Shown: positions 518 to 31,392 of the stretch, piece by piece | How positions within the stretch are numbered: position 1 is the first letter of the stretch | How the letters are laid out: the number at the start of each line of letters is the position of its first letter | Source of the DNA: Candidatus Magasanikiibacteriota bacterium | Lineage (GTDB): Bacteria > Patescibacteriota > Patescibacteriia > Magasanikbacterales > UBA922 | Reading direction: 5' to 3' | Length of the DNA stretch: 64,000 nucleotides | Assembly (NCBI GenBank): GCA_014729395.1 | Contig: WJJZ01000010.1 | Span: 23,901 to 87,900 of the forward strand | The notes under the pieces: generated by a model | What the model saw: the letters and a program-made list of their open reading frames with translations, nothing else | Told to the model about the DNA's origin: nothing | Databases searched by the model: none | Translations under genes and position numbers: made by a program

Positions 518-2083
518 CTACTCTATAGCTTTTTTAATTTGTAATGCAATCGATTTTACTACTGGCACACTGACTGAATTTCCAAACTGTTTATATAGCG
601 CAGAATCAGACATATTCTTTGGCAGTTTAAAATCCATTGGAAATCCTTGAATTCTGGCACATTCAAGTGGTGTTAGTTTTCTAATTCCTTTTTTATCTCT
701 GATGATTGGAACATTGTGCCCTCCCATACCCATGTTAGCCGTAAGTGTCGGACAGACTCCTTTTTTATTTTCACGCACATATTTTCTTCGCCACTGGTAT
801 ACCGTTTCTCTGCTTTTAACTTCATCTTTTAACTTTTCATAAAGTGGTTTTCCATTATAATAGTATTTTTCATCCACTTTTTCTTCAAGTAAATCAGTGA
901 TTTTTTTTGTAAGTTTCACAGTGCCAGGAAAGTTAAATTTTTCATAGTGTTTTTTATCCTTGAAGCCAACAATATAAATTCTTTCCCTATTTTGAGGAAC
1001 ATTCCCATATTCCATGCTATTCAAAACTTTTGATTTTACATGATAACCAAGATCTTCAAGTGTCTCTAATATGATTCTAAATGTTTTTCCCTTATCATGT
1101 CCTTTTAGATTTTTCACATTTTCAAGCATAAACCCCATTGGCTGTTTTTCTTTCAAAATACGAGCAACATCATAAAACAAATTTCCCCTCCCTTTTTCAT
1201 CATCAAACCCCTGTCTATAACCAGCAATCGAGAAAGCTTGACATGGAAATCCCCCGAGTAAAAAATCAAAATCAGGAAGTTTTTTTTCATTTATCTTTTG
1301 TATATCCTCAACGAACAATTTTGTTCCATCAAAATTTAAATCATACGTATCTTTACATTGTGATTCAAAATCATTTGCAAAAACAGTTTCAAAACCAGCT
1401 TCTTCAAAACCTAACCTTATTCCCCCCACTCCTGCAAATAAATCGATTGTTTTGAAAAGTTTTGTTTTTGGTAACTGTTTTCCAAAATCTCTAATAATTT
1501 TTACTACAACCCCTTGTACTTCAACTTCTTTACGAAACATCGGTAACAAATTTTGATTTGCTGGTTGCAGTCTAAATTTATTTTTTTCACGGTATATTTT
1601 TTTAAGCGTCGCCTCATCTTTATCTATCAAAGCAACAACGGTCTGTCCATTGTCAGCAGAATCTTGTTTCTTTAAAACTACAACATCACCATCAAAAATT
1701 CCATCTTCAACCATACTATCACCGGCAACTCTCAAAGCGTATAGTTGTTCTGGATCAAAATAAGTATCTCTAGCTATGTTAATAGTTTCGCCCTTCGTCT
1801 CAAGAGCTTCAATTGGCTGACCAGCAGCGATTGTACCAACAAGTGGAATATCTATAGAATCCACTTTACCAGGTTTTCTGACACCAAGACCCCGTGTGGC
1901 ATTTTCATCTTTAGTAATGTATCCTTTTTCGATCAACGCATTTACATGTTGATAAACACCCGACAAGGCCTTCAACTTTAGATGTTTCCTCAACTCCTCA
2001 AAAGTTGGCGAGAAACCTTTTTTTTCTATAAATGACTCGATGTAATCTAAAATTTGTTTTTGTCTTTTTGTAAGATTTGGCAT
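518..2083 (-). CDS. LexA-like repressor (wHTH + S24 self-cleaving peptidase) fused to DNA (cytosine-5)-methyltransferase
   Basis: Residues 1-200 align end-to-end with LexA: LTKRQ..GYI wHTH, IPLVGTIAAGQPI with the Ala-Gly site, GDSM Ser and ATLKK Lys. Residues 205-521 carry C5-MTase motif I DLFAGVGG, IV GFPCQAFS, VI ENV, VIII QNRER and X GNSVSV. Confidence 0.85.
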   Translation of the reverse strand: MPNLTKRQKQILDYIESFIEKKGFSPTFEELRKHLKLKALSGVYQHVNALIEKGYITKDENATRGLGVRKPGKVDSIDIPLVGTIAAGQPIEALETKGETINIARDTYFDPEQLYALRVAGDSMVEDGIFDGDVVVLKKQDSADNGQTVVALIDKDEATLKKIYREKNKFRLQPANQNLLPMFRKEVEVQGVVVKIIRDFGKQLPKTKLFKTIDLFAGVGGIRLGFEEAGFETVFANDFESQCKDTYDLNFDGTKLFVEDIQKINEKKLPDFDFLLGGFPCQAFSIAGYRQGFDDEKGRGNLFYDVARILKEKQPMGFMLENVKNLKGHDKGKTFRIILETLEDLGYHVKSKVLNSMEYGNVPQNRERIYIVGFKDKKHYEKFNFPGTVKLTKKITDLLEEKVDEKYYYNGKPLYEKLKDEVKSRETVYQWRRKYVRENKKGVCPTLTANMGMGGHNVPIIRDKKGIRKLTPLECARIQGFPMDFKLPKNMSDSALYKQFGNSVSVPVVKSIALQIKKAIE

Positions 2084-12344: not shown

Positions 12345-14924
12345 ATGATCCAATTTACCGGATCTCCGGTTTCACAATCATTTTCCAACAACGCCGGGAT
12401 ACTTAACGATCCACTTTTTTTCTATGCAATTATAGCTGTTGTCAGCATATTCATATTTCTATCATTTCTTTTCATTTTAAGAGCTTTATTACGGTTTAAA
12501 TCCAGACAAAGCAAAGCATTTAATCGAGTTGTACTGCAAATAACCGTACCAAAAGAAAAAAAATCTGAGGGTACCGGCGGCCAAGGTTCTCAAGAAGACA
12601 GACTGGAACAAATAAAAGAAGAAATAGGTCTGACTGAAACGGTTTTTGCGGCTATTGCCGGTATAAAGCCACAGGGAGGCATCAGTAGCTGGCTGCGCGG
12701 CAGAAACGACCACACCAGTTTTGAGATGGTAATGCATGAAGGTTTGATATACTTTTATGTTTCCGTTCCCGACAGAATGCATAGCTTCATTGAACAGCAA
12801 ATTCATGCTCAATACCCTTATGCTCATATTGAAAAAATGAGTGATTATAATATTTTTTCAAAAAACAGTTCTATTGTCGGAGCATATCTAAAAAGTAGCG
12901 CCCCGGCCGTTTTCCCGCTAAAAACATACAAATCCATGGAAGCCGACCCTCTATCGACCATTCTCAACGTCTTGGCGAAAGTCAGAGAAAATAACAGCTC
13001 GGCTGCCATTCAATTTACGGTCAGACCGGCGAATAAAAACTGGCGCAGCAAAGGAGTCAGCATCGTAAGAGAAGTAAAAAAAGGAAAAAAATTCGAAGAC
13101 GTAGTATCCGGCTCCAAATTTATGAAGGCCCTGAAAATAGTTGGCCAAGGAGTTGGAGAGCAAGTAAAAAGCCCGGAAACTCTTCAGAGAGAAAAAGACA
13201 AAGATCATTACCAACTTTCCGCCATGGAAGAAGAGATGCTAAAAGGCATTGAGGAAAAAATATCCAAAGGTGGAATGCAAGCTACAATCAGGCTTATAAG
13301 TGTATCAGACGATGAAAGTACCGCTCGATTGAATTTAGACAATCTAATAAATGCCTTTTCTCAATTTAATTTGTATAGATATGGAGCCAGTTTTAAAGCG
13401 ATTGTACCCAAAACCCAGTCAAAACTGATCAGAGACTTTATTTACCGATCCTTTAGTGAAAAATACAACATGATTCTAAATACGGAGGAAATGTCCAGTT
13501 TATGGCATTTACCTCTTCACTCTACCGAAGCACCAAATATAAAGTGGCTAACAGGTCGAAAGGCTCCCCCACCCCCGAATATACCGACAGAAGGACTTTT
13601 AATCGGTTTTGTAGAGTATCGAGGACAAAAAACAAATATTTATATGAAAGAAGCCGATAGACGCCGTCATATGTATTTAATCGGTAAGTCCGGTGGTGGT
13701 AAATCCGTATTTATTGCCAAAATGGCTGTCCAAGATATCCATAATGGCAAGGGCGTCTGTGTGGTAGATCCTCATGGTGATTTGGTAGAATATGTTTTGA
13801 GTCACATTCCAAAAGAGAGAGCTGACGATGTTATTATTTTTGATCCTTCCGATGTGGAGCGCCCGATCGGTCTAAACATGCTAGAGGCAAAATCTGAAGA
13901 CCAAAAAGATTTTGCGGTGCAAGAAATGATTTCCATTTTTTACAAACTCTTCCCTCCTGAAATGATCGGCCCCATGTTTGAACATAATATGCGAAATGTC
14001 ATGCTGACTTTGATGGCTGATTTGAAAAATCCGGGAACTGTAATTGATATTCCTCGCATGTTTACGGATGACGAATATGTAAAAAAATATTTGGCAAAGC
14101 TGAAAGATCCGGTTGTACGAGCGTTTTGGGAAAAAGAAATGGCAAAAACAAGTGATTTTCATAAATCAGAAATGCTTGGTTATCTTATTTCCAAAGTCGG
14201 CCGTTTTGTGGAAAATGAAATGATGAGAAATATAATGGGCCAGCAAAAATCGGGTTTTGACTTCCGAGAAGTAATGGACCAAAACAAAATATTGCTTGTG
14301 AACTTAGCCAAAGGTAAAACCGGAGAAGTTAATGCCAAACTGCTTGGCCTGATTGTTGTAGCAAAACTGCAAATGGCCGCTTTGGCAAGAGCTGATATGC
14401 CCGAAGAACAAAGAGATGATTTTTATTTATATATAGATGAGTTTCAAAACTTTGTTACTGATTCCATTTCCACTATCCTCTCTGAAGCCAGAAAATATAA
14501 ACTAAATTTAATTATCGCCCATCAATACATGGGCCAGTTGACAGATGATAAAGGACGAGCTGATATTAGAGACGCAGTCTTGGGTAATGCCGGTACGATT
14601 TGTTCAGCCAGGATAGGTCCGGACGACGCTGAAATACTGGCAAAAGAATTTGCTCCGACCTTTGGTTCCTATGATCTTTTGAATGCTCCCGAATATTCTT
14701 GGTATACAAAGATGTTAATTGATAATACAGCCTCCAAACCGTTCTTAATGCAAACTTTCCCACCGGAAGAAGGTAGTACAGAGCTCGGCTCGGCCATCAA
14801 AGAATTATCAAGATTAAAATTTGGTCGAGACCGTCGTATTGTTGAAGCGGAAATAATGGATCGTACCAAAATCGGACAGCCCGAAAGCCAAGGCAACACA
14901 GAAGCGGCAGAAGCCAGCCTGTGA
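12345..14924 (+). CDS. VirD4/TraD/TraG-family (FtsK/HerA superfamily) P-loop ATPase with N-terminal TM segment
   Basis: Walker A GKSGGGKS, Walker B LYIDEFQNF, an N-terminal TM helix, and size 859 aa. Matches what is usually annotated as a type IV secretion system DNA-binding domain protein in CPR genomes. Confidence 0.6.
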   Translation: MIQFTGSPVSQSFSNNAGILNDPLFFYAIIAVVSIFIFLSFLFILRALLRFKSRQSKAFNRVVLQITVPKEKKSEGTGGQGSQEDRLEQIKEEIGLTETVFAAIAGIKPQGGISSWLRGRNDHTSFEMVMHEGLIYFYVSVPDRMHSFIEQQIHAQYPYAHIEKMSDYNIFSKNSSIVGAYLKSSAPAVFPLKTYKSMEADPLSTILNVLAKVRENNSSAAIQFTVRPANKNWRSKGVSIVREVKKGKKFEDVVSGSKFMKALKIVGQGVGEQVKSPETLQREKDKDHYQLSAMEEEMLKGIEEKISKGGMQATIRLISVSDDESTARLNLDNLINAFSQFNLYRYGASFKAIVPKTQSKLIRDFIYRSFSEKYNMILNTEEMSSLWHLPLHSTEAPNIKWLTGRKAPPPPNIPTEGLLIGFVEYRGQKTNIYMKEADRRRHMYLIGKSGGGKSVFIAKMAVQDIHNGKGVCVVDPHGDLVEYVLSHIPKERADDVIIFDPSDVERPIGLNMLEAKSEDQKDFAVQEMISIFYKLFPPEMIGPMFEHNMRNVMLTLMADLKNPGTVIDIPRMFTDDEYVKKYLAKLKDPVVRAFWEKEMAKTSDFHKSEMLGYLISKVGRFVENEMMRNIMGQQKSGFDFREVMDQNKILLVNLAKGKTGEVNAKLLGLIVVAKLQMAALARADMPEEQRDDFYLYIDEFQNFVTDSISTILSEARKYKLNLIIAHQYMGQLTDDKGRADIRDAVLGNAGTICSARIGPDDAEILAKEFAPTFGSYDLLNAPEYSWYTKMLIDNTASKPFLMQTFPPEEGSTELGSAIKELSRLKFGRDRRIVEAEIMDRTKIGQPESQGNTEAAEASL

Positions 14925-21148: not shown

Positions 21149-21219
21149 CTCGGGAGCAGGGATTTGAACCCCGATAGCCAGGACCAGAACCTGGAGTCCT
21201 ACCATTAGACGACTCCCGA
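21149..21219 (-). tRNA. tRNA-Gln (anticodon CUG)
   Basis: Hand-folded cloverleaf with 7-bp acceptor UCGGGAG/CUCCCGA, D-arm GUCU/GGAC, anticodon stem CCAGG/CCUGG with loop UUCUGGU, T-arm CGGGG-UUCAAAU-CCCUG and discriminator G; CCA is not encoded. Confidence 0.75.
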
Positions 21220-24318: not shown

Positions 24319-25488
24319 ATGGAATTTACTGGAAACACTTTGTTAATTTTATTAATTATATTGTCAATCGGACTTATCGTTCCGGAACTGGTAAAAAGAA
24401 TCCGCCTACCCTATGTATCCGTAATCATTTTGGCCGGCGCATTGCTGGGACCAAACGGTTTAAATTACATTGAATTTAATGAAACAATATATTTTCTCGG
24501 CTTTTTGGGAATGACATTTCTTATGTTAATGGCCGGTTTGGAAAGTGATTTGGATAATATTACAAAATCAAAGTATAAAATATTTATAATGGCTTTTTTG
24601 AACGGTTTTATACCTTTTATATCAGGCATAGTAATTGCCACTTTATTCGGTTATGATATCGCTACCAGCCTACTCATCGGAGTTGTTTTTATTTCGTCCT
24701 CGGTAGCTGTCATTGTACCCCTTTTGGAAGGTAAAGGCGGCATTAAAAAAAGCTCAGCCAATCTCATGCTTTCGGCTGTCATGGTAACCGATATTATCTC
24801 TCTTATCGCGCTAGGTTTTATCTTTCAAAATACAGATAAAATAACGCTATTACCCCTACCCTTTTATTATATTATTCTTTTTATATCTTTACCCGTACTA
24901 TTTTATATTGTACCAAAATTTACCAATTTTGAATTAAGAAAAAGATTCCACAAACAAGACAAATTAGAAAGTAGAATAAGATTTATTATAGTAATTTTAA
25001 TAGGTGTACTGGTTTATTTTAGCGTACTAGGAATGCACCCAATATTAGCTGCGTTTTTGGCGGGATTATCTCTTTCCGGAGTTATTAAAAAAGATAAATC
25101 AGGTTTAATCTTTGCCAAGATACATACTATTGGCTACGGTTTGTTCGTACCGGTATTCTTTTTTATCGTTGGTATGGACATTGACTTATCAATATTTACA
25201 GAATTAAATTATTCATTATTGCTTATTTTTGCAATAATTGCCGGATCTATTCTAAGTAAGTTTTTTAGCGGTTTTATCGCCGGAAAATTGGCAAAACTCA
25301 ACAACAAAGAATCCACCCTATTCGGATCAATAACCACCACTCAGCTCACAACCACTCTTGCGGTAACCTATACCGCTTCTTCACTCGGTCTCATAGACTC
25401 AAATTTAAATACCGCAATCGTATTGCTCGCGGTTATAACAACATTTATGGGACCAACTATGTTTTTGTGGTTTTCAAAAAATAAATAA
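24319..25488 (+). CDS. Cation:proton antiporter (CPA family, Kef/NhaP-like)
   Basis: About 12 TM helices; the N-terminal LGPNGL..MAGLE region is typical of CPA1/2. Confidence 0.7.
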   Translation: MEFTGNTLLILLIILSIGLIVPELVKRIRLPYVSVIILAGALLGPNGLNYIEFNETIYFLGFLGMTFLMLMAGLESDLDNITKSKYKIFIMAFLNGFIPFISGIVIATLFGYDIATSLLIGVVFISSSVAVIVPLLEGKGGIKKSSANLMLSAVMVTDIISLIALGFIFQNTDKITLLPLPFYYIILFISLPVLFYIVPKFTNFELRKRFHKQDKLESRIRFIIVILIGVLVYFSVLGMHPILAAFLAGLSLSGVIKKDKSGLIFAKIHTIGYGLFVPVFFFIVGMDIDLSIFTELNYSLLLIFAIIAGSILSKFFSGFIAGKLAKLNNKESTLFGSITTTQLTTTLAVTYTASSLGLIDSNLNTAIVLLAVITTFMGPTMFLWFSKNK

Positions 25489-25589
25489 ACTTATCCACAA
25501 TTAAAAAATAATTTATTTAAGTCCAGCAAAAAATTTTTATATTTGCATAAAAGAATTCTACATGTCATAATATAAACATTAAAACTACG

Positions 25590-25828
25590 ACTTACCTGTG
25601 GAAGTTGGGTTAAATTCCCACACTGTGCCGCAACGGTAATCCGTCTTCGTCACGCTTTGAAGTGACTATACCGGACAAGATCTCATCTCACTGGGACTTG
25701 ACCGGGCAGCCCTATACAAAGTTTAGGGTGAAGTCGGGAGTCCGGTCTTCAGATAAGTTAATTGATCCTCTGGATCAATCCCGAGCAGGATATATATACA
25801 CACAACTTGCCTTCCGGGAAGTTTTTTA
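25590..25828 (+). promoter_or_regulatory. Candidate cobalamin riboswitch-like leader with intrinsic terminator expression platform
   Basis: GC-rich 240 nt in an AT-rich genome. Resembles the cobalamin core: GGUUAAAUUCC (cf. GGUGnnAAUCC), CACACUGU / CUCACUGGGA (cf. GCCACUG) and GACUUGACCGGGCAGCC (B12-box-like). Ends in hairpin AACUUGCCUUCCGGGAAGUU + U6 (25804-25827), 25 nt before the ATG at 25851. Downstream genes are DUF4430 and alpha/alpha-toroid proteins. Confidence 0.35.
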
Positions 25829-25850
25829 GTTGCTTATTTAAGAAAAAAAC

Positions 25851-26519
25851 ATGATCAAAAAATTTATTCAAAATAATAAATTTACATTGTTCATTTGGTT
25901 TAGCATGTTAATTTTAATGTTTGTAACAGGATATTATACTTATGAGGATAAAATTAACTTTTACAAAGCTCTTTCAAAAATAAATATAGAAGCTAAAAGT
26001 ATACAAAACTCTATACAAAATATAGAAATAGACAAAAATTCAGAAAATGCTCTTTTAGAAAATAATTTAGATGAAAGTAGCTCTTATCTTAAGCCATCCT
26101 CAACGAAAGTATACACTACTGTAGACAATTTTAAGATATCACAGGATGGTTCTGTTGCTACAAGTAATCCAAAAACAAACAATAATACAGAAAATAAGAC
26201 AAATCTTACATCCACTGAAAATTTGTCTATCACTCTCAAGGTCAATAATAAACAATATTTGGCTAAACTAAACAACAGCAGTACTGTATACGATCTAATG
26301 GAACACTTGCAAGAAGAAAGTGATTTTAAATTTAGTGGAGTTGAGTATGATTATTTAGGCTTTTTCGTTGAGTCTATAGCGAATATAAAAAATGATCCTT
26401 ACACCGGAAAATATTGGATATACTATGTAAACAATAAAAAAGCGACCATGGGCATATCCAATAGGCTATTAAAAAATAATGACGTAATCGAATGGAAATA
26501 TGAACAAGAGGAACTATAA
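25851..26519 (+). CDS. DUF4430-domain protein (beta-domain like that of transcobalamin/intrinsic factor), N-terminal TM anchor
   Basis: C-terminal 80 aa (LKVNNKQY..YWIYYVNNKKATMGIS..NNDVIEWKYE) fit the DUF4430 beta-grasp pattern; N-terminal TM helix. Confidence 0.5.
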   Translation: MIKKFIQNNKFTLFIWFSMLILMFVTGYYTYEDKINFYKALSKINIEAKSIQNSIQNIEIDKNSENALLENNLDESSSYLKPSSTKVYTTVDNFKISQDGSVATSNPKTNNNTENKTNLTSTENLSITLKVNNKQYLAKLNNSSTVYDLMEHLQEESDFKFSGVEYDYLGFFVESIANIKNDPYTGKYWIYYVNNKKATMGISNRLLKNNDVIEWKYEQEEL

Positions 26520-28986
26520 AAGTCCTGTCCTCGTTGCCCTTTTTACAATTATAATAATACTTTTTTCTGCAGAATCCGCATTTGCCAGTACCAATACCAC
26601 TTCAACAGATTCAAATTTGGAAACAAGTTCAAGTACCACTATTACCGATAACTCAATTGAGCTTGAAAGTTCATCAACCACCGAACAATTAAGTATAAAC
26701 ACATTGATGAATTCAAGTACTTCAACTGTTGACAGCACTAGCTCGAGTACCACAAATTCCTTTATAAGTTTGGGATCAAAATCTGATGAGATCATATCAT
26801 CAGAGGCCAGTGTCGAAGAAGCCACTGATTTATACACAAAACATATAAGTTTCAATCTGCGCTTAGGTGATGAATATGTGATAACTGAGGAGATTAATCT
26901 AAGTACGACCACCTACTCAGACCAAATCAATAATATTGAATACGACTTGGCTACTACCGGTACGGTTTTTTCCGCTCTTGTGCAAGCTGATAATTTATCT
27001 GAAAAATTCAGTATTAGTAATGCACAGTATAACGCAGAATTTGATAGTTTTTATATTGCCTGCCTGGAAATTGATGAAAATGGAGAAAACACTGAATACT
27101 GCGATAATTGGAATTATGTGGTTGACGATGAATACCCTTCAATCGGAATGGATAAATATGAACTGAATGGCGAAGAAAATGTTTATGTATATTTTTCTAC
27201 ACCATGGAAAATTACGACAAAGCATAATGAAGTCGAGGTTAATAGCACAACCACTGTTAAAACATGGCGCTATGCCTATAATGATCCCAATACCGAATGG
27301 GAAGCAGATCCTAATACGATGATTGACATTTCTCAGCCAAACGCAAGTTCTACCGGTTGGTGGGATGAGAATTTAACAGTATCTACCACTTATTCAAACG
27401 AAGATGGGTTTGCAGAACTGATTTTTTCAGAGCCGGGTATTTACAATATTAAAATCACTTCTTCCGACTGGACTAAATGGAGTCAGCCGGTACAAATAAA
27501 TGTTATTAATCAAACCAACCAAACTGTAACTTCCACCCTACAAACCGATTCCGCTACGGTTTCTACACAATCGACAAATTCTTATTCATCTACTTCCGAT
27601 AATGAATTGATTTCCAACACTGATATCGAAGAAGCAGCTAATCGAATATTATCATTTTTGGAATCAGAACAAGACCAATCGGGAAAAATCAAAGATGGCG
27701 GTACAAGTGACTGGAGTACGATTTCTTTCGGAGCAGCCGATATTGACTCGGATACCATAAAAAAAGAAGGTAAGTCATTGATTGATTATGTAAAAGACCG
27801 CGAATTGACCGAAACTAACGAGATTAATCTTTGTGCTGCTTATCCCAGACATATATTGGCTTTGTTGGCCGGCGGAATCGAGTCTGATGATCAACAAATA
27901 AAAAATTTAAGAGAAAAAATTGAAAATGACTGCTACGAATTGGAGAATGATAATAATTATGGGGAAATCGGAATCAATGACGATGTTTTTGCTCTTATTG
28001 CTTTAATTGCAAGTGGTTCTGACACCAAAGACAATCAAATATTAACTGATATATTAAACGAAATTAGCGATGACCAGACAGAAGATGGTGCATTTACTTG
28101 GGTAGGATTTCCTAGCGCTGATATTACCGGAGCTGTAATAAACACTCTTATCTACTCCAAAGAAAATGATATTGAAATTGATGAAAATTTGATTGATAAT
28201 GCACGCCAATACTTAAAAGAAACCCAGCTGGATGATGGCGGTTGGGGTATGGATGATAGTGATGTTCTCACAACATCATGGGTAATGATGGGAATAAACG
28301 CCCTTGGTGAAGATCAGCTTGATTGGCAGACCGATAGCGGAAAAAACCCTTGGTATGTACTGGTACAAAATTTGAATGATGAAGGATATTATGAATCCGA
28401 ATACTATACGGATGAAGTGGATTGGTTTGCAACCAAACATGCTGTTCCGGCTCTTTTGGGTAAAAGTTGGCCGATAGTATTTGAATCCGATAATGAGGAA
28501 AACCCAAACTCAAATACTACCCCATCTGAGACAAAGCCTGAAAACACCTCCGACGAAATAACCGACAACACTAGCACATCCACCACAGACAACATAACGA
28601 CCGATGATTCTGTTACCACTGAAAAAGATGAGCATACGAAATCCCCCACTTCCACACCGGCAGACGATGTAATTACAGATCCCAAAGAATATACTCCTCA
28701 AAACAACTTAAACATCAAAGGTTCAGGTGATTATAATTATGAACCTGCTATCGAAAAAAGTGATGACGCAAGTGATGAAAATGAAGTATTTGAAACGGTT
28801 GAACCGGATAAAATCGGACCCGAAGCAATAGATAAACCAACCACAACCAATAGTGATTTGGACCTGGATATAATAGGATTAATAAGAGAAAATCTACGAA
28901 AAATATTCTTTCTCATTACCGCCCTAACCGGAATTATGACAGTTCATGTAATCGGTAAATACATTCAACATAGAAAAAATAAATAA
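26500..28986 (+). CDS. Large surface protein: signal peptide, S/T-rich linker, alpha/alpha-toroid (prenyltransferase/terpene-cyclase-like) repeats, C-terminal TM anchor
   Basis: Signal peptide VLVALFTIIIILFSAESAFA; repeated Q..DG.W-type motifs (QDQSGKIKDGGTSDWS, QTEDGAFTW, QLDDGGWGMDD); T/D-rich stalk; C-terminal TM IFFLITALTGIMTVHVIG. Start overlaps the upstream gene by 20 nt. Confidence 0.55.
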   Translation: MNKRNYKSPVLVALFTIIIILFSAESAFASTNTTSTDSNLETSSSTTITDNSIELESSSTTEQLSINTLMNSSTSTVDSTSSSTTNSFISLGSKSDEIISSEASVEEATDLYTKHISFNLRLGDEYVITEEINLSTTTYSDQINNIEYDLATTGTVFSALVQADNLSEKFSISNAQYNAEFDSFYIACLEIDENGENTEYCDNWNYVVDDEYPSIGMDKYELNGEENVYVYFSTPWKITTKHNEVEVNSTTTVKTWRYAYNDPNTEWEADPNTMIDISQPNASSTGWWDENLTVSTTYSNEDGFAELIFSEPGIYNIKITSSDWTKWSQPVQINVINQTNQTVTSTLQTDSATVSTQSTNSYSSTSDNELISNTDIEEAANRILSFLESEQDQSGKIKDGGTSDWSTISFGAADIDSDTIKKEGKSLIDYVKDRELTETNEINLCAAYPRHILALLAGGIESDDQQIKNLREKIENDCYELENDNNYGEIGINDDVFALIALIASGSDTKDNQILTDILNEISDDQTEDGAFTWVGFPSADITGAVINTLIYSKENDIEIDENLIDNARQYLKETQLDDGGWGMDDSDVLTTSWVMMGINALGEDQLDWQTDSGKNPWYVLVQNLNDEGYYESEYYTDEVDWFATKHAVPALLGKSWPIVFESDNEENPNSNTTPSETKPENTSDEITDNTSTSTTDNITTDDSVTTEKDEHTKSPTSTPADDVITDPKEYTPQNNLNIKGSGDYNYEPAIEKSDDASDENEVFETVEPDKIGPEAIDKPTTTNSDLDLDIIGLIRENLRKIFFLITALTGIMTVHVIGKYIQHRKNK

Positions 28987-28989
28987 TGC

Positions 28990-29541
28990 TTGTCTTTAAT
29001 AAATATGTTCGATAAAACAAATATTTGGATTATGGTGGCACTGCTTATGTTACTTGGTTTCGCAACCAGATTACTGCCCCATCCACCAAATTTCACACCG
29101 ATAGCGGCAATAGCCATTTTTGGAGGTTTGTATTTACCAAAATACTTGTCTGTTGTAATTCCCATTGCGGTGATGCTGGTTGGAGATATAGTTATTGGAT
29201 TTTATAATCCCTACGTTATGATATCGGTCTATGTAGGCTTTATATTATGTGTTGTATTAGCCTTGATTATTCGTAAAAAGAAAAAAATTCACTACATACT
29301 TGGTACAACCGTCTTCGGATCCATATTATTTTTTTTACTTACGAATATGGCTGTATGGGCTTTTGGTACACTCTATCCACATAGTTTGGCAGGATTGATA
29401 GAGAGCTATACCATGGCCATTCCTTTTTTTAGGAATAGTTTGTTGGGAGACTTGTTTTATGTAGGTGTGCTGGTTGGTGGATTTGAAACGGTCAAATATT
29501 TTTTGTTAAATAATAAAAAAATAGAGCAAAAAATAATCTGA
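28990..29541 (+). CDS. Small polytopic membrane protein (5-6 TM), ECF S-component/BtuM-like candidate
   Basis: 183 aa with LLPHPPNFTPIAAIAIFGG followed by 4-5 further TM helices; last gene of the putative operon before the terminator. Confidence 0.4.
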   Translation: MSLINMFDKTNIWIMVALLMLLGFATRLLPHPPNFTPIAAIAIFGGLYLPKYLSVVIPIAVMLVGDIVIGFYNPYVMISVYVGFILCVVLALIIRKKKKIHYILGTTVFGSILFFLLTNMAVWAFGTLYPHSLAGLIESYTMAIPFFRNSLLGDLFYVGVLVGGFETVKYFLLNNKKIEQKII

Positions 29542-29621: not shown

Positions 29622-29819
29622 TTACTTTGTACCAAGGAAACCAGGCCAACCGCCCTTTTTCTTCCAAACATCTGAATAGGTTTGGTGTGGACCAGACGGG
29701 AGACGGAGGTCCTGTTTGTAGCCTTTGATATATCCTCTAGAGGTTTTAAACCCCAAAGCCTGGGCAGCTTTGGAAGCTTCTTCCCAAGTTTCGTAGAAAC
29801 TAATTATTTTTTTACCCAA
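29622..29819 (-). pseudogene. Frameshift-separated fourth copy of the helicase C-terminal repeat
   Basis: Encodes GKKIISFYETWEEASKAAQALGFKT..GGWPGFLG, identical in pattern to repeats 1-3 of the upstream helicase. Separated by a +1 frameshift in a G3 (vs G2) run near 29835. Confidence 0.5.
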
Positions 29820-31392
29820 GAAACCAGGCCAACCGCCCTTTTTCTTTCCAGACCTCGGAGTAACTATTATTCGGGTCAGATGGAAGACGGAGGTCTTTTC
29901 TGTAGTGTTCTTGGTATTCTGTTTTAGTTTTAAACCCCAAAGCCTGGGCAGCTTTGGAAGCTTCTTCCCAGGTTTCGTAGAAACTAATTATCTTCTTACC
30001 CAAGAAACCAGGCCAACCGCCTTTTTCTTTCCAGACCTCGGAGTAACTCTTATTCGGGTAAGATGGAAGACGGAGGTCTTTTCTGTAGTGTTCTTTGTAT
30101 TCTGTTACAGTTTTAAACCCCAAAGCTTGTGCAGCTTTGGAGGCTTCTTCCCAGGTAGGGTAGAAATTCCGAGACAGCATAACATCAACATAGTCGAGAA
30201 TCCCGACAACCTCTTCCAAGTACTCATCATAGAACACCTTAAAGCCGGTTGAGACCTCTCTCACATCGGTGTCATAATCATCCCGAAGGCCGACAGAAAC
30301 CAGCTGTCCGATGAATTCCAAGCGCCGGTAGGTGCCGACAAAGTCCATGACAACCACTTTTTGCTTGTCTCTGGTCTTGCGCAGACCTCGACCGAGCTGC
30401 TGGTACCAGACTACGGCGCTTCTGGTTGAACGCAGGAAGACGATCAGGTCAACAGTGGGGATGTCAATTGCTTCATTGAACATATCCACCGTGAGTAGTG
30501 TCCGAATCTCTCCTCTTTGAAACGCTTGGAAGCGCTCTTTGAGAGTCTTTGTCTTGAGGCCCGAATGGTATGACACAGCCTCGGGAAAGTATTTGTTGAC
30601 TCTCCTAAGGTGGCTGATCGAACGACAGAAAATGACCGCCTGTTTGTCAGCAACCGACTGCTCGGCTTTGACAGTTTCGGCAATCGCTTCCAGTTTTTCA
30701 ACTAGAAAGAGATTTTTGTCAAGTTTTGTCTTTGAAATGGAGCGGTCCTCTTGCCTGACTCTCTCGATGAGATCTTGTATAACCTCTCTTGAGATGTTGT
30801 CGGTCAAGAGCCGGTACTCCACCTCAGCCAGCCACTCGTTGTCAGCGAGTGCCTCTTTCAAGCCGTAGGAGTATACCTCGTCTCCAAAGATATCCCTGAT
30901 ATCAAGACCATCTCCCCTGAAAGGAGTAGCGGTCATACCAAGCATGAACCGGGGTGTGAAGTAGTCGATGATTTCCTTGTAGGTCTCTGCATGAGAATGA
31001 TGAGCCTCGTCTACGATGACAAGAGAAAACTCATCCTCTTCCAGCTCCCAAACAAGGCTTTCCTGCATGGTCTGAAAAGTACTAAGGAGCACCGTGGCAT
31101 CCTTATCTTCTTTGACCACGCCATTGACAATCGAGATGCCGGGCTTGTCCTCAAGACTGAAGAGAGCCTCTTCAAACTCCTGTTTGGCCTGATACAGCGG
31201 GTCGGTCATATGAAGGATAAAGAGAACTTTACCTCCATAATTTTCCAACCAATAGCGAATGATGTTGCCGGCGAGCACTGTCTTGCCCAAGCCGGAGGCC
31301 ATGGAAATTAGAACAGTTTTGAATCCACTGCTCACGGCCTCAAGGATAGCCGACTTAGCTTCTTCCTGATAAGGTCTGAGTGTTTTCATCAC
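29812..31392 (-). CDS. SF2 (DEAH/ResIII-type) helicase with C-terminal tandem 60-aa repeats
   Basis: Motif I MASGLGKT, motif II VIVDEAHH, motif III TATP, motif VI QQLGRGLR; followed by three repeats of ETWEEASKAAQALGFKT..EY..YRKDLRLPS.PN.SYSEVWKEKGGWPGFLG. Confidence 0.8.
   Translation of the reverse strand: MMKTLRPYQEEAKSAILEAVSSGFKTVLISMASGLGKTVLAGNIIRYWLENYGGKVLFILHMTDPLYQAKQEFEEALFSLEDKPGISIVNGVVKEDKDATVLLSTFQTMQESLVWELEEDEFSLVIVDEAHHSHAETYKEIIDYFTPRFMLGMTATPFRGDGLDIRDIFGDEVYSYGLKEALADNEWLAEVEYRLLTDNISREVIQDLIERVRQEDRSISKTKLDKNLFLVEKLEAIAETVKAEQSVADKQAVIFCRSISHLRRVNKYFPEAVSYHSGLKTKTLKERFQAFQRGEIRTLLTVDMFNEAIDIPTVDLIVFLRSTRSAVVWYQQLGRGLRKTRDKQKVVVMDFVGTYRRLEFIGQLVSVGLRDDYDTDVREVSTGFKVFYDEYLEEVVGILDYVDVMLSRNFYPTWEEASKAAQALGFKTVTEYKEHYRKDLRLPSYPNKSYSEVWKEKGGWPGFLGKKIISFYETWEEASKAAQALGFKTKTEYQEHYRKDLRLPSDPNNSYSEVWKEKGRLAWFLG

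What the first reader, a model, noticed from the sequence alone, without database searches (positions are those of the whole stretch)
25590..25828. Candidate cobalamin riboswitch controlling the downstream operon
This is the second GC-rich island of the window. Its 3' end is a textbook intrinsic terminator (AACUUGCCUUCCGGGAAGUU + U6) placed 25 nt before the ATG. That is the arrangement of a transcription-attenuating riboswitch expression platform. Alternative pairings (UUGAUCC-UCU-GGAUCAA and AUCC-CGAGCA-GGAU) lie just upstream.

The aptamer region resembles cobalamin-riboswitch core elements: GGUUAAAUUCC, two CACUG-containing segments and a B12-box-like GACUUGACCGGGCAGCC. I could not reproduce the full consensus, so the class assignment is tentative.

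Two family associations are recalled from memory, not verified here. DUF4430 is the beta-domain family of transcobalamin/intrinsic factor. DUF4430 genes frequently sit behind B12 riboswitches.
Basis: partly seen in the sequence, partly recalled or inferred. Interest (0 to 1): 0.7.

Follow-up and report, generated by a model that had tools for sequence, protein, structure and literature searches.

The report
Cobalamin riboswitch with enlarged P6 arm
This leader is a genuine vitamin-B12-sensing riboswitch that most likely switches off, by premature transcription termination, an operon for B12 capture and import in a Magasanikbacteria (candidate phyla radiation) genome; the kind of element is ordinary, and standard Rfam thresholds miss it only because one arm carries a ~100-nt insertion.

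Summary
Window 25589-25827 (+) is a cobalamin-clan riboswitch followed by an intrinsic terminator, 23 nt before the ATG of a B12-uptake operon.

- **Rfam:** it does not call the element. The best hit is RF00174 at 20.4 bits, against a gathering score of 31.5.
- **Custom model:** a covariance model built only from seven RF01482-positive leaders of orthologous DUF4430 genes gives one hit in the 64 kb. That hit is 25586-25795, full length, 82.2 bits, E 2.7e-16.
- **Conservation:** the same model finds the element upstream of the DUF4430 gene in 75 of 80 CPR loci.
- **Covariation:** 94% of cells are paired and 19 of 23 pairs show compensatory changes. An unfitted RNAalifold run recovers the same helices.

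The Rfam miss is explained by a 97-nt four-way-junction insertion in P6, the longest of 76 leaders.

- The "B12-box-like" string lies inside that insertion. The real J6/3 is AGUCCGGUCUUC (25739-25750).
- AUCC-CGAGCA-GGAU is the conserved P13/L13 kissing-loop hairpin.
- The terminator has a G·G mismatch.

The operon encodes a protein with a transcobalamin-β-like domain and a BtuM-like membrane protein.

Verdict: a new member of a known kind, of modest interest.

The parts
25542..25571 (+). Promoter-like site: -35 TTTGCA (25542-25547), 18-nt spacer, TG-extended -10 CATAAT (25566-25571). The transcript would start about 10-20 nt before P1.
   Evidence: Consensus scan. Orthologous leaders carry a TACAAT-like hexamer at the equivalent distance upstream of P1. 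Consensus match only; the transcription start site was not determined.
25589..25598 (+). P1/P3 helix, 5' strand (GACUUACCUG). It pairs with 25750-25759, giving 9 pairs and one C25595·A25753 mismatch. There is no P2 stem-loop module between it and the GGAA junction.
   Evidence: CM alignment. All 8 modelled pairs of this helix show compensatory changes among 76 leaders. It is also recovered by RNAalifold on a plain MAFFT alignment.
25599..25621 (+). J3/4 (UGGAA) followed by P4/L4: G25604-C25621 and U25606-G25609 paired with C25617-A25620, loop UUAAAUU.
   Evidence: Matches the RF00174 and RF01482 consensus GGAA..GGU.aAAuCC. 4 of 5 P4 pairs covary and 99.2% of cells are paired.
25622..25636 (+). 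ACUGUGCCGCAACGG: P5/L5 (25624-25632, with L5 UGCCG at 25626-25630) and the 5' strand of P6 (CGG, 25634-25636).
   Evidence: Nearly invariant in 76 leaders. P5 pair 81-89 switches U-A/A-U in 26 sequences.
25641..25737 (+). Lineage-specific P6 extension, a four-way junction.
- Basal stem: 25641-25648 x 25730-25737, with a U·U mismatch.
- Hairpin 1: 25649-25666.
- Hairpin 2: 25671-25705.
- Hairpin 3: 25710-25728.

   Evidence: - It appears as a 98-nt insertion relative to the model.
- It is the longest of the 76 leaders (105 nt between the P6 strands, against 19-39 nt in 71 of them).
- It folds alone at -38.7 kcal/mol, z -4.46, with MFE frequency 0.41.
- L164 and L049 share the basal stem and hairpins, with compensatory differences.
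25739..25750 (+). AGUCCGGUCUUC: the 3' strand of P6 (CCG, 25742-25744), J6/3 (25745-25749) and the first P1/P3 3' base (C25750). This is the B12-box equivalent of this clade.
   Evidence: Aligned to AAGUCAGGUCUUU of RF01482 in orthologs and to the model in the window. P6 pairs are 100% paired.
25750..25759 (+). P1/P3 helix, 3' strand (CAGAUAAGUU).
25761..25779 (+). Optional linker hairpin (A)UUGAUCC-UCU-GGAUCAA(U) between the aptamer and P13.
   Evidence: MFE. A hairpin of unrelated sequence occupies this linker in about 15 other leaders, and the linker is only 4-7 nt in most.
25778..25791 (+). P13/L13: AUCC-CGAGCA-GGAU.

L13 can pair with L5 as follows, with A25784 bulged:
- U25626-A25787
- G25627-C25786
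- C25628-G25785
- C25629-G25783
- G25630-C25782
   Evidence: - CGAGCA is present in 72 of 76 leaders.
- The P13 stem covaries (UCC/GGA, UUC/GAA, CUU/AAG).
- The kissing-loop helix is 99.5% paired, with double changes at 2 of 5 pairs (L003, L035).
- The RF01482 consensus has CCCG x CG(A)GG where this clade has GCCG x CG(A)GC.
25780..25818 (+). Candidate antiterminator: 25780-25783 (CCCG) x 25815-25818 (CGGG), and 25785-25789 (GCAGG) x 25806-25810 (CUUGC). It is mutually exclusive with both P13 and the terminator.
   Evidence: It is the MFE of 25760-25832 (-17.1 kcal/mol), against -16.2 for P13 plus terminator. The equivalent pairing is the MFE in 70/74 truncated orthologous leaders. In the window the complementarity is weak and not significant on its own.
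25804..25827 (+). Intrinsic terminator: AACUU-G-CC UUCC GG-G-AAGUU (25804-25823) with a U-run at 25822-25827.
   Evidence: -6.1 kcal/mol. 74/76 leaders have a hairpin plus U-tract after P13, a median of 26 nt downstream. The simple consensus scan does not call it.
25851..26519 (+). Gene 1: a 222-aa protein with an N-terminal helix/TM, a disordered linker and a C-terminal DUF4430 domain that resembles the transcobalamin beta domain.
   Evidence: Pfam PF14478, 56.5 bits. AF2 gives pLDDT >90 for the domain. Foldseek top hits are transcobalamin, haptocorrin and intrinsic factor.
26500..28986 (+). Gene 2: an 828-aa S/T-rich protein with a weak DUF4430 match (155-233), a squalene-hopene-cyclase-like alpha/alpha toroid region (534-637) and a C-terminal hydrophobic segment.
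   Evidence: Both Pfam matches are below the gathering score (21.3 and 18.8 bits). Homologs follow the DUF4430 gene in 72/80 loci.
29005..29541 (+). Gene 3: a DUF6580 membrane protein of 178 aa from the ATG. The longest ORF starts at TTG 28990. It has an ECF S-component fold and is closest to the cobalamin transporter BtuM.

Best explanation
Window 25589-25827 (+) is a cobalamin (B12) riboswitch of a clade that is conserved across Patescibacteria/CPR genomes in front of a B12-scavenging operon.

**Aptamer.**
- The core is the usual P3-P4-P5-P6 junction, with a continuous P1/P3 helix and no P2 module, as in the RF01482 / Cbl-IIb type.
- In this genome P6 carries an extra 97-nt four-way junction.

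**Proposed mechanism (inferred, not shown).**
- With enough corrinoid (probably adenosylcobalamin) bound, loop L5 kisses loop L13. This locks the small P13 hairpin (25778-25791).
- The downstream hairpin plus U-run (25804-25827) is then free to form, and transcription terminates 23 nt before the ATG. The switch is an OFF switch.
- Without ligand, the P13/L13 nucleotides instead pair with the 5' arm and loop of the terminator (25780-89 x 25806-18). Polymerase then reads into the three genes: a membrane-anchored protein with a transcobalamin-beta-like domain, a large surface protein, and a BtuM-like transporter.

**What is shown here:** sequence and structure homology, conservation, covariation, presence of the terminator, and the B12-related folds of the products.

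**What is inferred:** ligand identity, the kissing loop as the trigger, and the antiterminator.

**Confidence.** The stated confidence of 0.85 is for the element being a cobalamin-clan riboswitch that controls this operon. For the specific termination/antitermination mechanism in this genome I would say about 0.65.
For: 1. **Independent model.** CM R1 was built only from seven orthologous leaders that pass Rfam RF01482 at gathering score. It gives a single hit in 64 kb on both strands: 25586-25795, 82.2 bits, E 2.7e-16, model 1-130/130.
2. **Conservation.** The same model hits 75/80 CPR loci. Every hit is on the gene's strand, upstream of the DUF4430 gene match.
3. **Covariation.**
   - 94.2% of cells are paired and 19/23 pairs have double changes.
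   - The covariation score is 0.521, against 0.142 in shuffles (0/500 reach it) and <=0.105 with slid partners.
   - RNAalifold on an unfitted MAFFT alignment of 30 leaders recovers P1, P4, P5, P6, the P6 hairpin and P13, with 19/24 pairs compensatory.
4. **Core intact.** The window agrees with 31 of the 33 columns that are >=90% conserved. The two misses are an alignment artefact beside the insert.
5. **Rfam miss explained.** The extended-P6 relatives L164, L049 and L024 give no cobalamin-clan match at E<=0.1. L016 and L014 fall below gathering score.
6. **Kissing loop.** L5 x L13 is 99.5% paired. L003 and L035 show compensatory swaps, and there is a further swap relative to the RF01482 consensus. 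The L5-L13 kissing loop is common to all cobalamin riboswitch classes (PMC7367189).
7. **Terminator.** It is present in 74/76 leaders.
8. **Antiterminator.**
   - The P13/L13 element is complementary to the terminator's 5' arm. Median duplex energy is -10.7 kcal/mol against -5.2 for shuffles, and 69% of leaders reach p<=0.05.
   - In 70/74 truncated leaders the MFE pairs the two elements.
   - In the window the two states are nearly isoenergetic (-17.1 vs -16.2).
9. **Regulated genes.**
   - The DUF4430 domain has the transcobalamin beta-domain fold.
   - Synteny is conserved.
Against: - No Rfam family reaches its gathering score on the window. RF00174 gives only 20.4 of 31.5 bits, and RF01482 scores lower still.
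- The window's own P13-to-terminator complementarity is among the weakest in the clade. The duplex is -6.2 kcal/mol with p 0.30, and 5 pairs form in the truncated transcript with p 0.4.
- The terminator is weak (-6.1 kcal/mol, one G·G mismatch) and is missed by the consensus scan.
- Kissing-loop covariation rests on only one or two sequences, because L5 and L13 are almost invariant.
- Covariation was counted partly on an alignment fitted to the model.
- No binding or expression data exist. Ligand selectivity (AdoCbl versus other corrinoids) cannot be read from sequence.
- The effect of the large P6 insertion on folding and ligand binding is unknown.
Confidence: 0.85

Rival explanations
1. It is a cobalamin riboswitch, but it senses a corrinoid other than adenosylcobalamin (methyl- or hydroxocobalamin, or another cobamide), or it is promiscuous. 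On this reading the large P6 extension changes selectivity relative to the short-P6 relatives.
For: - Selectivity in this clan depends on peripheral elements, and small changes can alter it. The B. subtilis yvrC hybrid is promiscuous (PMC7367189).
- The window combines the absence of a P2 module with a large P6 extension. That combination is not among the four architectures described there.
Against: - Most relatives match the AdoCbl model RF01482. Cbl-IIb-type architecture is reported to be AdoCbl-specific.
- The core junction nucleotides of the window are identical to those relatives.
- P6 and L4 insertions differ between leaders, as expected of neutral expansion segments.
Confidence: 0.2
2. 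It is a cobalamin riboswitch, but control is mainly translational or works through mRNA stability. On this reading the hairpin plus U-run is a constitutive or leaky attenuator, not the regulated step.
For: - The window's terminator is weak and its antiterminator complementarity is not significant on its own.
- Kissing-loop cobalamin riboswitches often regulate translation. This is my own recollection of the Cbl-IIa env8 system and was not checked here.
Against: - P13 does not contain the ribosome-binding region. It ends 59 nt before the ATG, and the terminator lies between them.
- A terminator follows P13 in 74/76 leaders, and the P13-terminator complementarity is a property of the clade.
- No pairing that would sequester the 25828-25850 region was seen in the folds.
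Confidence: 0.1
3. It is a decayed, non-functional relic of a riboswitch, disabled by the 97-nt insertion in P6.
For: - No Rfam hit at threshold.
- It has the longest insertion of the 76 leaders.
- Its antiterminator is the weakest class in the clade.
Against: - Every highly conserved core position is intact, and P1, P4, P5, P6 and P13 can all form.
- The insertion is itself a stable, well-defined four-way junction (z -4.46).
- Two relatives (L164, L049) share its architecture with compensatory differences, which argues for selection.
- The operon behind it is intact.
Confidence: 0.05
4. It is not a riboswitch at all, but a chance GC-rich structured leader or some other class of cis-regulatory RNA or sRNA.
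For: Only the failure of Rfam gathering thresholds.
Against: - E 2.7e-16 against a model that excludes the window.
- 75/80 orthologous loci carry the element.
- Covariation is strong.
- No other Rfam family scores meaningfully; the rest have E >1.
- There is no ORF of >=60 aa in 25489-25850 on either strand.
Confidence: 0.01

Closest known systems
AdoCbl riboswitch, Rfam RF01482 (Cbl-IIb-type architecture as defined in PMC7367189)
   Same: - The core matches: P1/P3 continuous helix without a P2 module, GGAA J3/4, P4 with a 7-nt loop, P5/L5, and P6 closed by CGG/CCG.
- J6/3 is AGUC.GGUCUU.
- A downstream P13 hairpin has a CGAG-type L13 that can kiss L5.
- Seven of 20 orthologous leaders tested pass its gathering score.
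   Different: - The window itself scores below 20.4 bits, against a gathering score of 50.
- P6 carries a 97-nt four-way junction instead of a short hairpin.
- L5/L13 read GCCG x CG(A)GC rather than the consensus CCCG x CG(A)GG.
Classical cobalamin riboswitch, Rfam RF00174 (Cbl-I, e.g. T. tengcongensis 4GMA)
   Same: - The same clan and the same four-way-junction core.
- P6 is greatly extended.
- It is the best Rfam match to the window (20.4 bits, E 0.0034).
   Different: - It falls below the gathering score of 31.5.
- There is no P2 loop-stem-loop between P1 and P3.
- The extension did not align to the model's P7-P11 region; it was skipped as a 71-nt local insert.
- The RF00174 register of the B12 box (AGUCGGGAGUC) produces non-canonical pairs and conflicts with the 75 orthologs.
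B. subtilis yvrC cobalamin riboswitch (structural hybrid, PMC7367189)
   Same: It is a precedent for cobalamin riboswitches that mix Cbl-I and Cbl-II peripheral elements. It also uses a terminator/antiterminator platform with P13.
   Different: yvrC has a P2 module plus a small P6 hairpin. The window has the converse: no P2 module plus a large P6 extension.
Cbl-IIa / AdoCbl-variant riboswitch (env8, RF01689)
   Same: It lacks the P2 module, and the L5-L13 kissing loop is the regulatory switch.
   Different: Cbl-IIa has only a loop on P6 and a bulged J1/3, and it binds hydroxo-/methylcobalamin. The relatives of the window match RF01482 rather than RF01689.

Membership tests
Cobalamin riboswitch clan (Rfam CL00101) | Score at or above the curated gathering threshold of one of the clan's models (RF00174 31.5; RF01482 50; RF01689) | tested here: not met
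   There is no clan hit on the whole window at gathering score. The best is RF00174 at 20.4 bits, and the other clan models score lower. This is an operational threshold rather than a structural definition. The miss is explained by the 98-nt P6 insertion.
Cobalamin riboswitch clan (Rfam CL00101) | Homology of sequence and structure to bona fide members: P3-P6 junction core with GGAA J3/4, P4/L4, P5/L5, P6 and J6/3 (B12 box) | tested here: met
   A CM built from seven RF01482-positive orthologous leaders, with the window excluded, gives 82.2 bits, E 2.7e-16, full length. 31/33 conserved columns are identical. Helices are supported by covariation.
Cobalamin riboswitch clan (Rfam CL00101) | L5-L13 kissing-loop potential linking aptamer and expression platform | tested here: met
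   Five possible pairs join 25626-25630 with 25782-25787. The helix is 99.5% paired over 76 leaders, with double changes at 2 of 5 pairs in L003/L035. This is by sequence only, and the covariation rests on very few sequences.
Cobalamin riboswitch clan (Rfam CL00101) | Direct, selective binding of a cobalamin and ligand-dependent gene control | not testable with these tools
   Requires in-line probing or ITC and transcription or reporter assays.
Cobalamin riboswitch clan (Rfam CL00101) | Association with B12 metabolism or transport genes | tested here: met
   [not shown]
Cbl-IIb subclass (PMC7367189) | No P2 module; short paired or mismatched segment between P1 and P3 | tested here: met
   25589-25598 pairs continuously with 25750-25759 apart from one C·A mismatch. 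Only U25599 separates the helix from GGAAG.
Cbl-IIb subclass (PMC7367189) | Small P6 extension (a short hairpin) | tested here: not met
   The window has a 97-nt four-way junction. 71 of the 76 related leaders do have a short hairpin.
Cbl-I subclass (PMC7367189) | P2 loop-stem-loop module between P1 and P3 | tested here: not met
   There is no sequence available for it. RF00174 model positions 1-46 are unmatched.
Cbl-I subclass (PMC7367189) | Large P6 extension homologous to P7-P11 that folds back on the core | tested here: inconclusive
   A large extension is present, but it did not align to the RF00174 extension. Tertiary contacts cannot be assessed.
Rho-independent (intrinsic) terminator | GC-containing hairpin immediately followed by a U-tract | tested here: met
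   25804-25823 plus the U-run to 25827, -6.1 kcal/mol. It fails the stricter consensus scan because of the internal G·G mismatch. An equivalent is present in 74/76 leaders.

The most novel reading that the evidence does not exclude
The window element, together with L164 and L049, may represent an undescribed architectural subtype of cobalamin riboswitch. It has a Cbl-II-type P1/P3 without a P2 module, combined with a large branched P6 domain unrelated to P7-P11. That extra domain might tune corrinoid selectivity or folding.

It would sit at the head of a Patescibacteria-wide B12-scavenging system (transcobalamin-like binders plus a solitary BtuM-like S component) that has not been described in the literature I could search.
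Probability: 0.2. Interest if true: 0.5.

Novelty: new member of a known kind. Interest (0 to 1): 0.3.

Why it matters
**Annotation.** Rfam's curated thresholds detect only about a third of this CPR clade: 7 of 20 leaders, against 17 of 20 with a clade-specific model. They miss every member with an enlarged P6 or L4. B12 regulons in Patescibacteria are therefore under-called.

**Biology.** A near-universal B12 riboswitch precedes an operon for a protein with a transcobalamin-beta-like domain, a large surface protein and a BtuM-like membrane protein. This points to regulated corrinoid scavenging in these reduced-genome bacteria, and it supplies a functional hypothesis for DUF4430 and DUF6580.

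**RNA structure.** The clade offers natural pairs of otherwise near-identical aptamers with and without a large P6 domain. These would be useful for testing how peripheral elements affect cobalamin selectivity.

None of this overturns current understanding.

Tried and rejected
- **Rfam at gathering score on the whole window:** only a tRNA was found.
- **RF00174's register**, which treats AGUCGGGAGUC (25731-25741) as the B12 box. I rejected it because it needs several non-canonical pairs and disagrees with the alignment to 75 orthologs. In those, AGUCCGGUCUUC is the conserved element.
Both lie in the non-conserved insertion.
- **Whole-leader MFE.** It pairs the 5' AAAACU with the terminator's U-tract. 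I did not pursue this, because the 5' flank is outside the conserved element and the pairing uses the U-run itself.
- **Metagenome pattern scan CCGCAACGGTN{0,3}CCGNCTTCG.** The pattern was too loose. Almost all of the 120 stretches are chance matches in GC-rich coding DNA. Only L164 is a true relative.
- **The closest protein homolog P0002 (66% identity).** It sits on a 1-kb contig with 132 nt of unrelated upstream sequence, so it gives no information about the leader.
- **Sequence searches of the three operon proteins against PDB sequences:** nothing significant. Only fold comparison was informative.
- **NCBIfam:** no useful name.
- **Literature searches:** 'cobalamin riboswitch' with Patescibacteria, and DUF6580, each returned no papers. 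My recollection that BtuH contains DUF4430 was not supported by a text search of PMC8941943, so I do not use it.
- **First-pass terminator detection by 'first U-run'.** It picked up spacer U-runs and was replaced by the search.
Full report
**Context.** The protein encoded at 25851-26519 is 100% identical to a protein of a Candidatus Magasanikbacteria MAG, a member of the Patescibacteria/CPR. The finding lies in the 362-nt gap between a Na+/H+ exchanger gene (24319-25488) and three co-directional genes:
- a DUF4430 protein (25851-26519);
- an 828-aa protein with weak DUF4430 and squalene-hopene-cyclase-like matches (26500-28986);
- a DUF6580 membrane protein (28990/29005-29541).

**Checking the observation.**
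- The leader is GC-enriched relative to its flanks.
- It folds better than all 200 dinucleotide shuffles (z -3.75).

Rfam does not call it. At gathering thresholds the only hit in the 64 kb is a tRNA at 21149-21219. With relaxed thresholds on 25480-25900 the best match is RF00174 Cobalamin. That match is local (model 47-167 of 189), 20.4 bits against a gathering score of 31.5, E 0.0034, and it skips 71 nt as an unaligned insert. The simple terminator scan finds nothing. The hairpin AACUUGCCUUCCGGGAAGUU has an internal G·G mismatch, and the six-U run partly overlaps the stem.

**Comparative evidence.** I aligned the few close homologs of the DUF4430 protein and used the alignment to fetch 80 loci from one-genome-per-species contigs. 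Nearly all are labelled Patescibacteria or are unclassified MAGs.

Rfam at gathering score on the first 20 loci found RF01482 (AdoCbl riboswitch) at 50-65 bits, upstream of the DUF4430 gene match, in seven of them. Their alignments show that the window leader shares an almost identical core with them: GUGGAAG-P4-CACUGUGCCGCAACGGUAA ... AGUCCGGUCUUC-P1' ... CCCGAGCAGGA. A regular expression for that core found it in 24 loci plus the window, with obvious P4 covariation.

**An independent model.**
- I aligned the seven Rfam-positive leaders (A2) and wrote P1, P4, P5, P6 and P13 by hand.
- From this I built covariance model R1, without the window sequence.
- R1 gives exactly one hit in the window on either strand: 25586-25795, 82.2 bits, E 2.7e-16, model 1-130 of 130. 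It has a 98-nt insertion where the model has 18 nt, in the P6 loop.
- Over all 80 loci it hits 75. Every hit is on the gene's strand, upstream of the DUF4430 gene match. Two of the five misses have truncated upstream flanks.

**Structure support.**
- On the model-fitted alignment A3, 94.2% of cells form standard pairs and 19 of 23 pairs show changes on both sides.
- The covariation score is 0.521. Column shuffles give 0.142 (0 of 500 reach the observed value), and shifting partners by 1-3 columns gives at most 0.105.
- Because A3 is fitted to the model, I also ran RNAalifold on a plain MAFFT alignment of 30 leaders. It predicts the same P1, P4, P5, P6, P6 hairpin and P13, with 19 of 24 pairs compensatory.
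- The window agrees with 31 of 33 columns that are >=90% conserved in the other 75 leaders. The two exceptions are 'AG' residues placed in insert columns next to the P6 insertion.

**Anatomy in window coordinates.**
- P1/P3: 25589-25598 with 25750-25759, with one C·A mismatch.
- J3/4: UGGAA, 25599-25603.
- P4/L4: 25604-25621.
- P5/L5: 25624-25632.
- P6: CGG 25634-25636 with CCG 25742-25744.
- P6 extension: 25641-25737.
- J6/3: within AGUCCGGUCUUC, 25739-25750.
- Linker hairpin: 25761-25779.
- P13/L13: AUCC-CGAGCA-GGAU, 25778-25791.
- Terminator: 25804-25823, with the U-run to 25827.
- ATG: 25851.

**Why Rfam misses it.** The stretch between the two P6 strands is 105 nt in the window, the longest of 76 leaders. 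It is 19-39 nt in 71 of them. Other leaders with enlarged P6 or L4 are also missed or sub-threshold: L164, L049 and L024 give nothing at E<=0.1, L016 scores 33.5 bits on RF01482, and L014 scores 27.2 bits on RF00174.

The window's extension folds on its own into a four-way junction (-38.7 kcal/mol, z -4.46, MFE frequency 0.41). L164 (a metagenome contig) and L049 share parts of this extension:
- Both share the basal stem CCG(U/A)CUUC/GAAG(U/A/G)CGG.
- Both have the first hairpin, with compensatory differences: GUCAC/GUGAC, CCC/GGG and GUCCCG/CGGGAC.
- Both have the CCGGA-initiated second hairpin.
- L164 also has a third hairpin, of different sequence.

Three sequences are too few for statistics.

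**Classification.** PMC7367189 defines four architectures:
- Cbl-I has a P2 module plus a large P7-P11 extension.
- Cbl-IIa and Cbl-IIb lack the P2 module and have a small P6 addition.
- B. subtilis yvrC is a hybrid with a P2 module plus a small P6 hairpin.

Most leaders of this CPR clade fit Cbl-IIb/RF01482. The window has no P2 module but a large P6 domain, which did not align to RF00174's extension. I therefore place it in the cobalamin clan by homology, as a Cbl-IIb-derived aptamer with an expansion segment. I do not assign it strictly to either subclass.

**Expression platform.**
- A hairpin plus U-tract follows P13 in 74 of 76 leaders. The median start is 26 nt downstream and the median energy is -7.6 kcal/mol. 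The window's is -6.1.
- The commonest terminator is AAUUCUGC...GCAGAAUU+U6-7. Its 5' arm is complementary to the GAGCAGGA of L13/P13.
- The best duplex between the P13/L13 element and the terminator's 5' arm plus loop has median -10.7 kcal/mol, against -5.2 for shuffled arms. 69% of leaders reach p<=0.05.
- In transcripts truncated before the terminator's 3' arm, the MFE pairs at least four nucleotides of the element with the terminator arm in 70 of 74 leaders. The mean is 8.1 pairs against 4.0 with shuffled arms.
- L5 and L13 are almost invariant. The proposed kissing loop is UGCCG x CG(A)GCA, and it is 99.5% paired. L003 and L035 carry compensatory swaps, as does the RF01482 consensus (CCCG x CG(A)GG).

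Together these support a three-element switch. When the ligand-stabilised L5-L13 kiss holds P13 closed, the terminator forms. Otherwise P13/L13 invades the terminator.

In the window this is less clear-cut. The duplex is only -6.2 kcal/mol (p 0.30). However, folding 25760-25832 gives an antiterminator (25780-83 x 25815-18 and 25785-89 x 25806-10) at -17.1 kcal/mol, against -16.2 for P13 plus terminator. That is a near-degenerate pair of states, as expected for a switch.

**The regulated genes.**
- The AF2 model of the 222-aa protein has an N-terminal helix, a disordered linker and a confident C-terminal domain (pLDDT >90).
- The best PDB matches of that domain are transcobalamin, its isolated beta domain (5no0/5np4, TM ~0.83, rmsd 1.6 A), haptocorrin and intrinsic factor.
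- PMC4350170 notes that TCN proteins carry a C-terminal DUF4430.
- Homologs of the 828-aa protein follow the DUF4430 gene in 72 of 80 loci. DUF6580 is seen in 17, limited by the 2.5-kb flank.

The operon is therefore coherent with B12 capture and import, which fits an OFF-type B12 riboswitch.

**Verdict.** The element is a new member of a known kind. It belongs to a CPR clade of cobalamin riboswitches that Rfam only partly detects, and it is distinguished here by an unusually large P6 domain. Ligand binding, ligand selectivity and the termination mechanism remain inferences.

Noticed in passing
[not shown]
   Followed up: partly
window 26500-28986 (+): This 828-aa S/T-rich protein combines a weak DUF4430 match with a squalene-cyclase-like alpha/alpha toroid. 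From memory, not tested here, the alpha domain of transcobalamin is also an alpha/alpha barrel, so these would be its two fold types in the opposite order. Homologs follow the DUF4430 gene in 72/80 CPR loci. It may be a surface B12-capture protein.
   Followed up: partly
L001-L080, L202 (leaders upstream of DUF4430 genes): The CPR cobalamin leaders have two insertion hot spots: L4 (e.g. L016, L063, L060, L051, L202) and P6 (window, L024, L014, L049, L016, L164). Rfam gathering thresholds find 7 of 20 leaders, whereas a clade-specific model finds 17 of 20.
   Followed up: partly
window 518-2083 (-): A single ORF combines a LexA DNA-binding domain, an S24 peptidase domain and a C-5 cytosine DNA methyltransferase domain. 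This is an unusual fusion.
   Followed up: no
window 29812-31392 (-): A ResIII/Helicase_C superfamily-2 helicase carries two C-terminal 'integrase repeat unit' (INT_rpt) copies. It is convergent with the end of the B12 operon.
   Followed up: no
window 12345-14924 (+): An 859-aa protein matches type IV secretion coupling proteins (TraG/VirD4/TrwB). It may be part of a mobile element or a DNA-uptake system.
   Followed up: no
window 21149-21219 (-): A tRNA gene (56.7 bits).
   Followed up: no
L009 22-113 (-): A TPP riboswitch (71.1 bits) lies about 1.7 kb upstream of the cobalamin leader in a related Magasanikbacteria contig.
   Followed up: no
L058 terminator, about 38-58 nt after P13: In some leaders the terminator (AAUUCUGCCCGAGCAGGAUU) contains a second copy of the CCCGAGCAGGA motif of P13/L13. 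The terminator and P13 are therefore near-duplicates competing for the same 5' arm.
   Followed up: no
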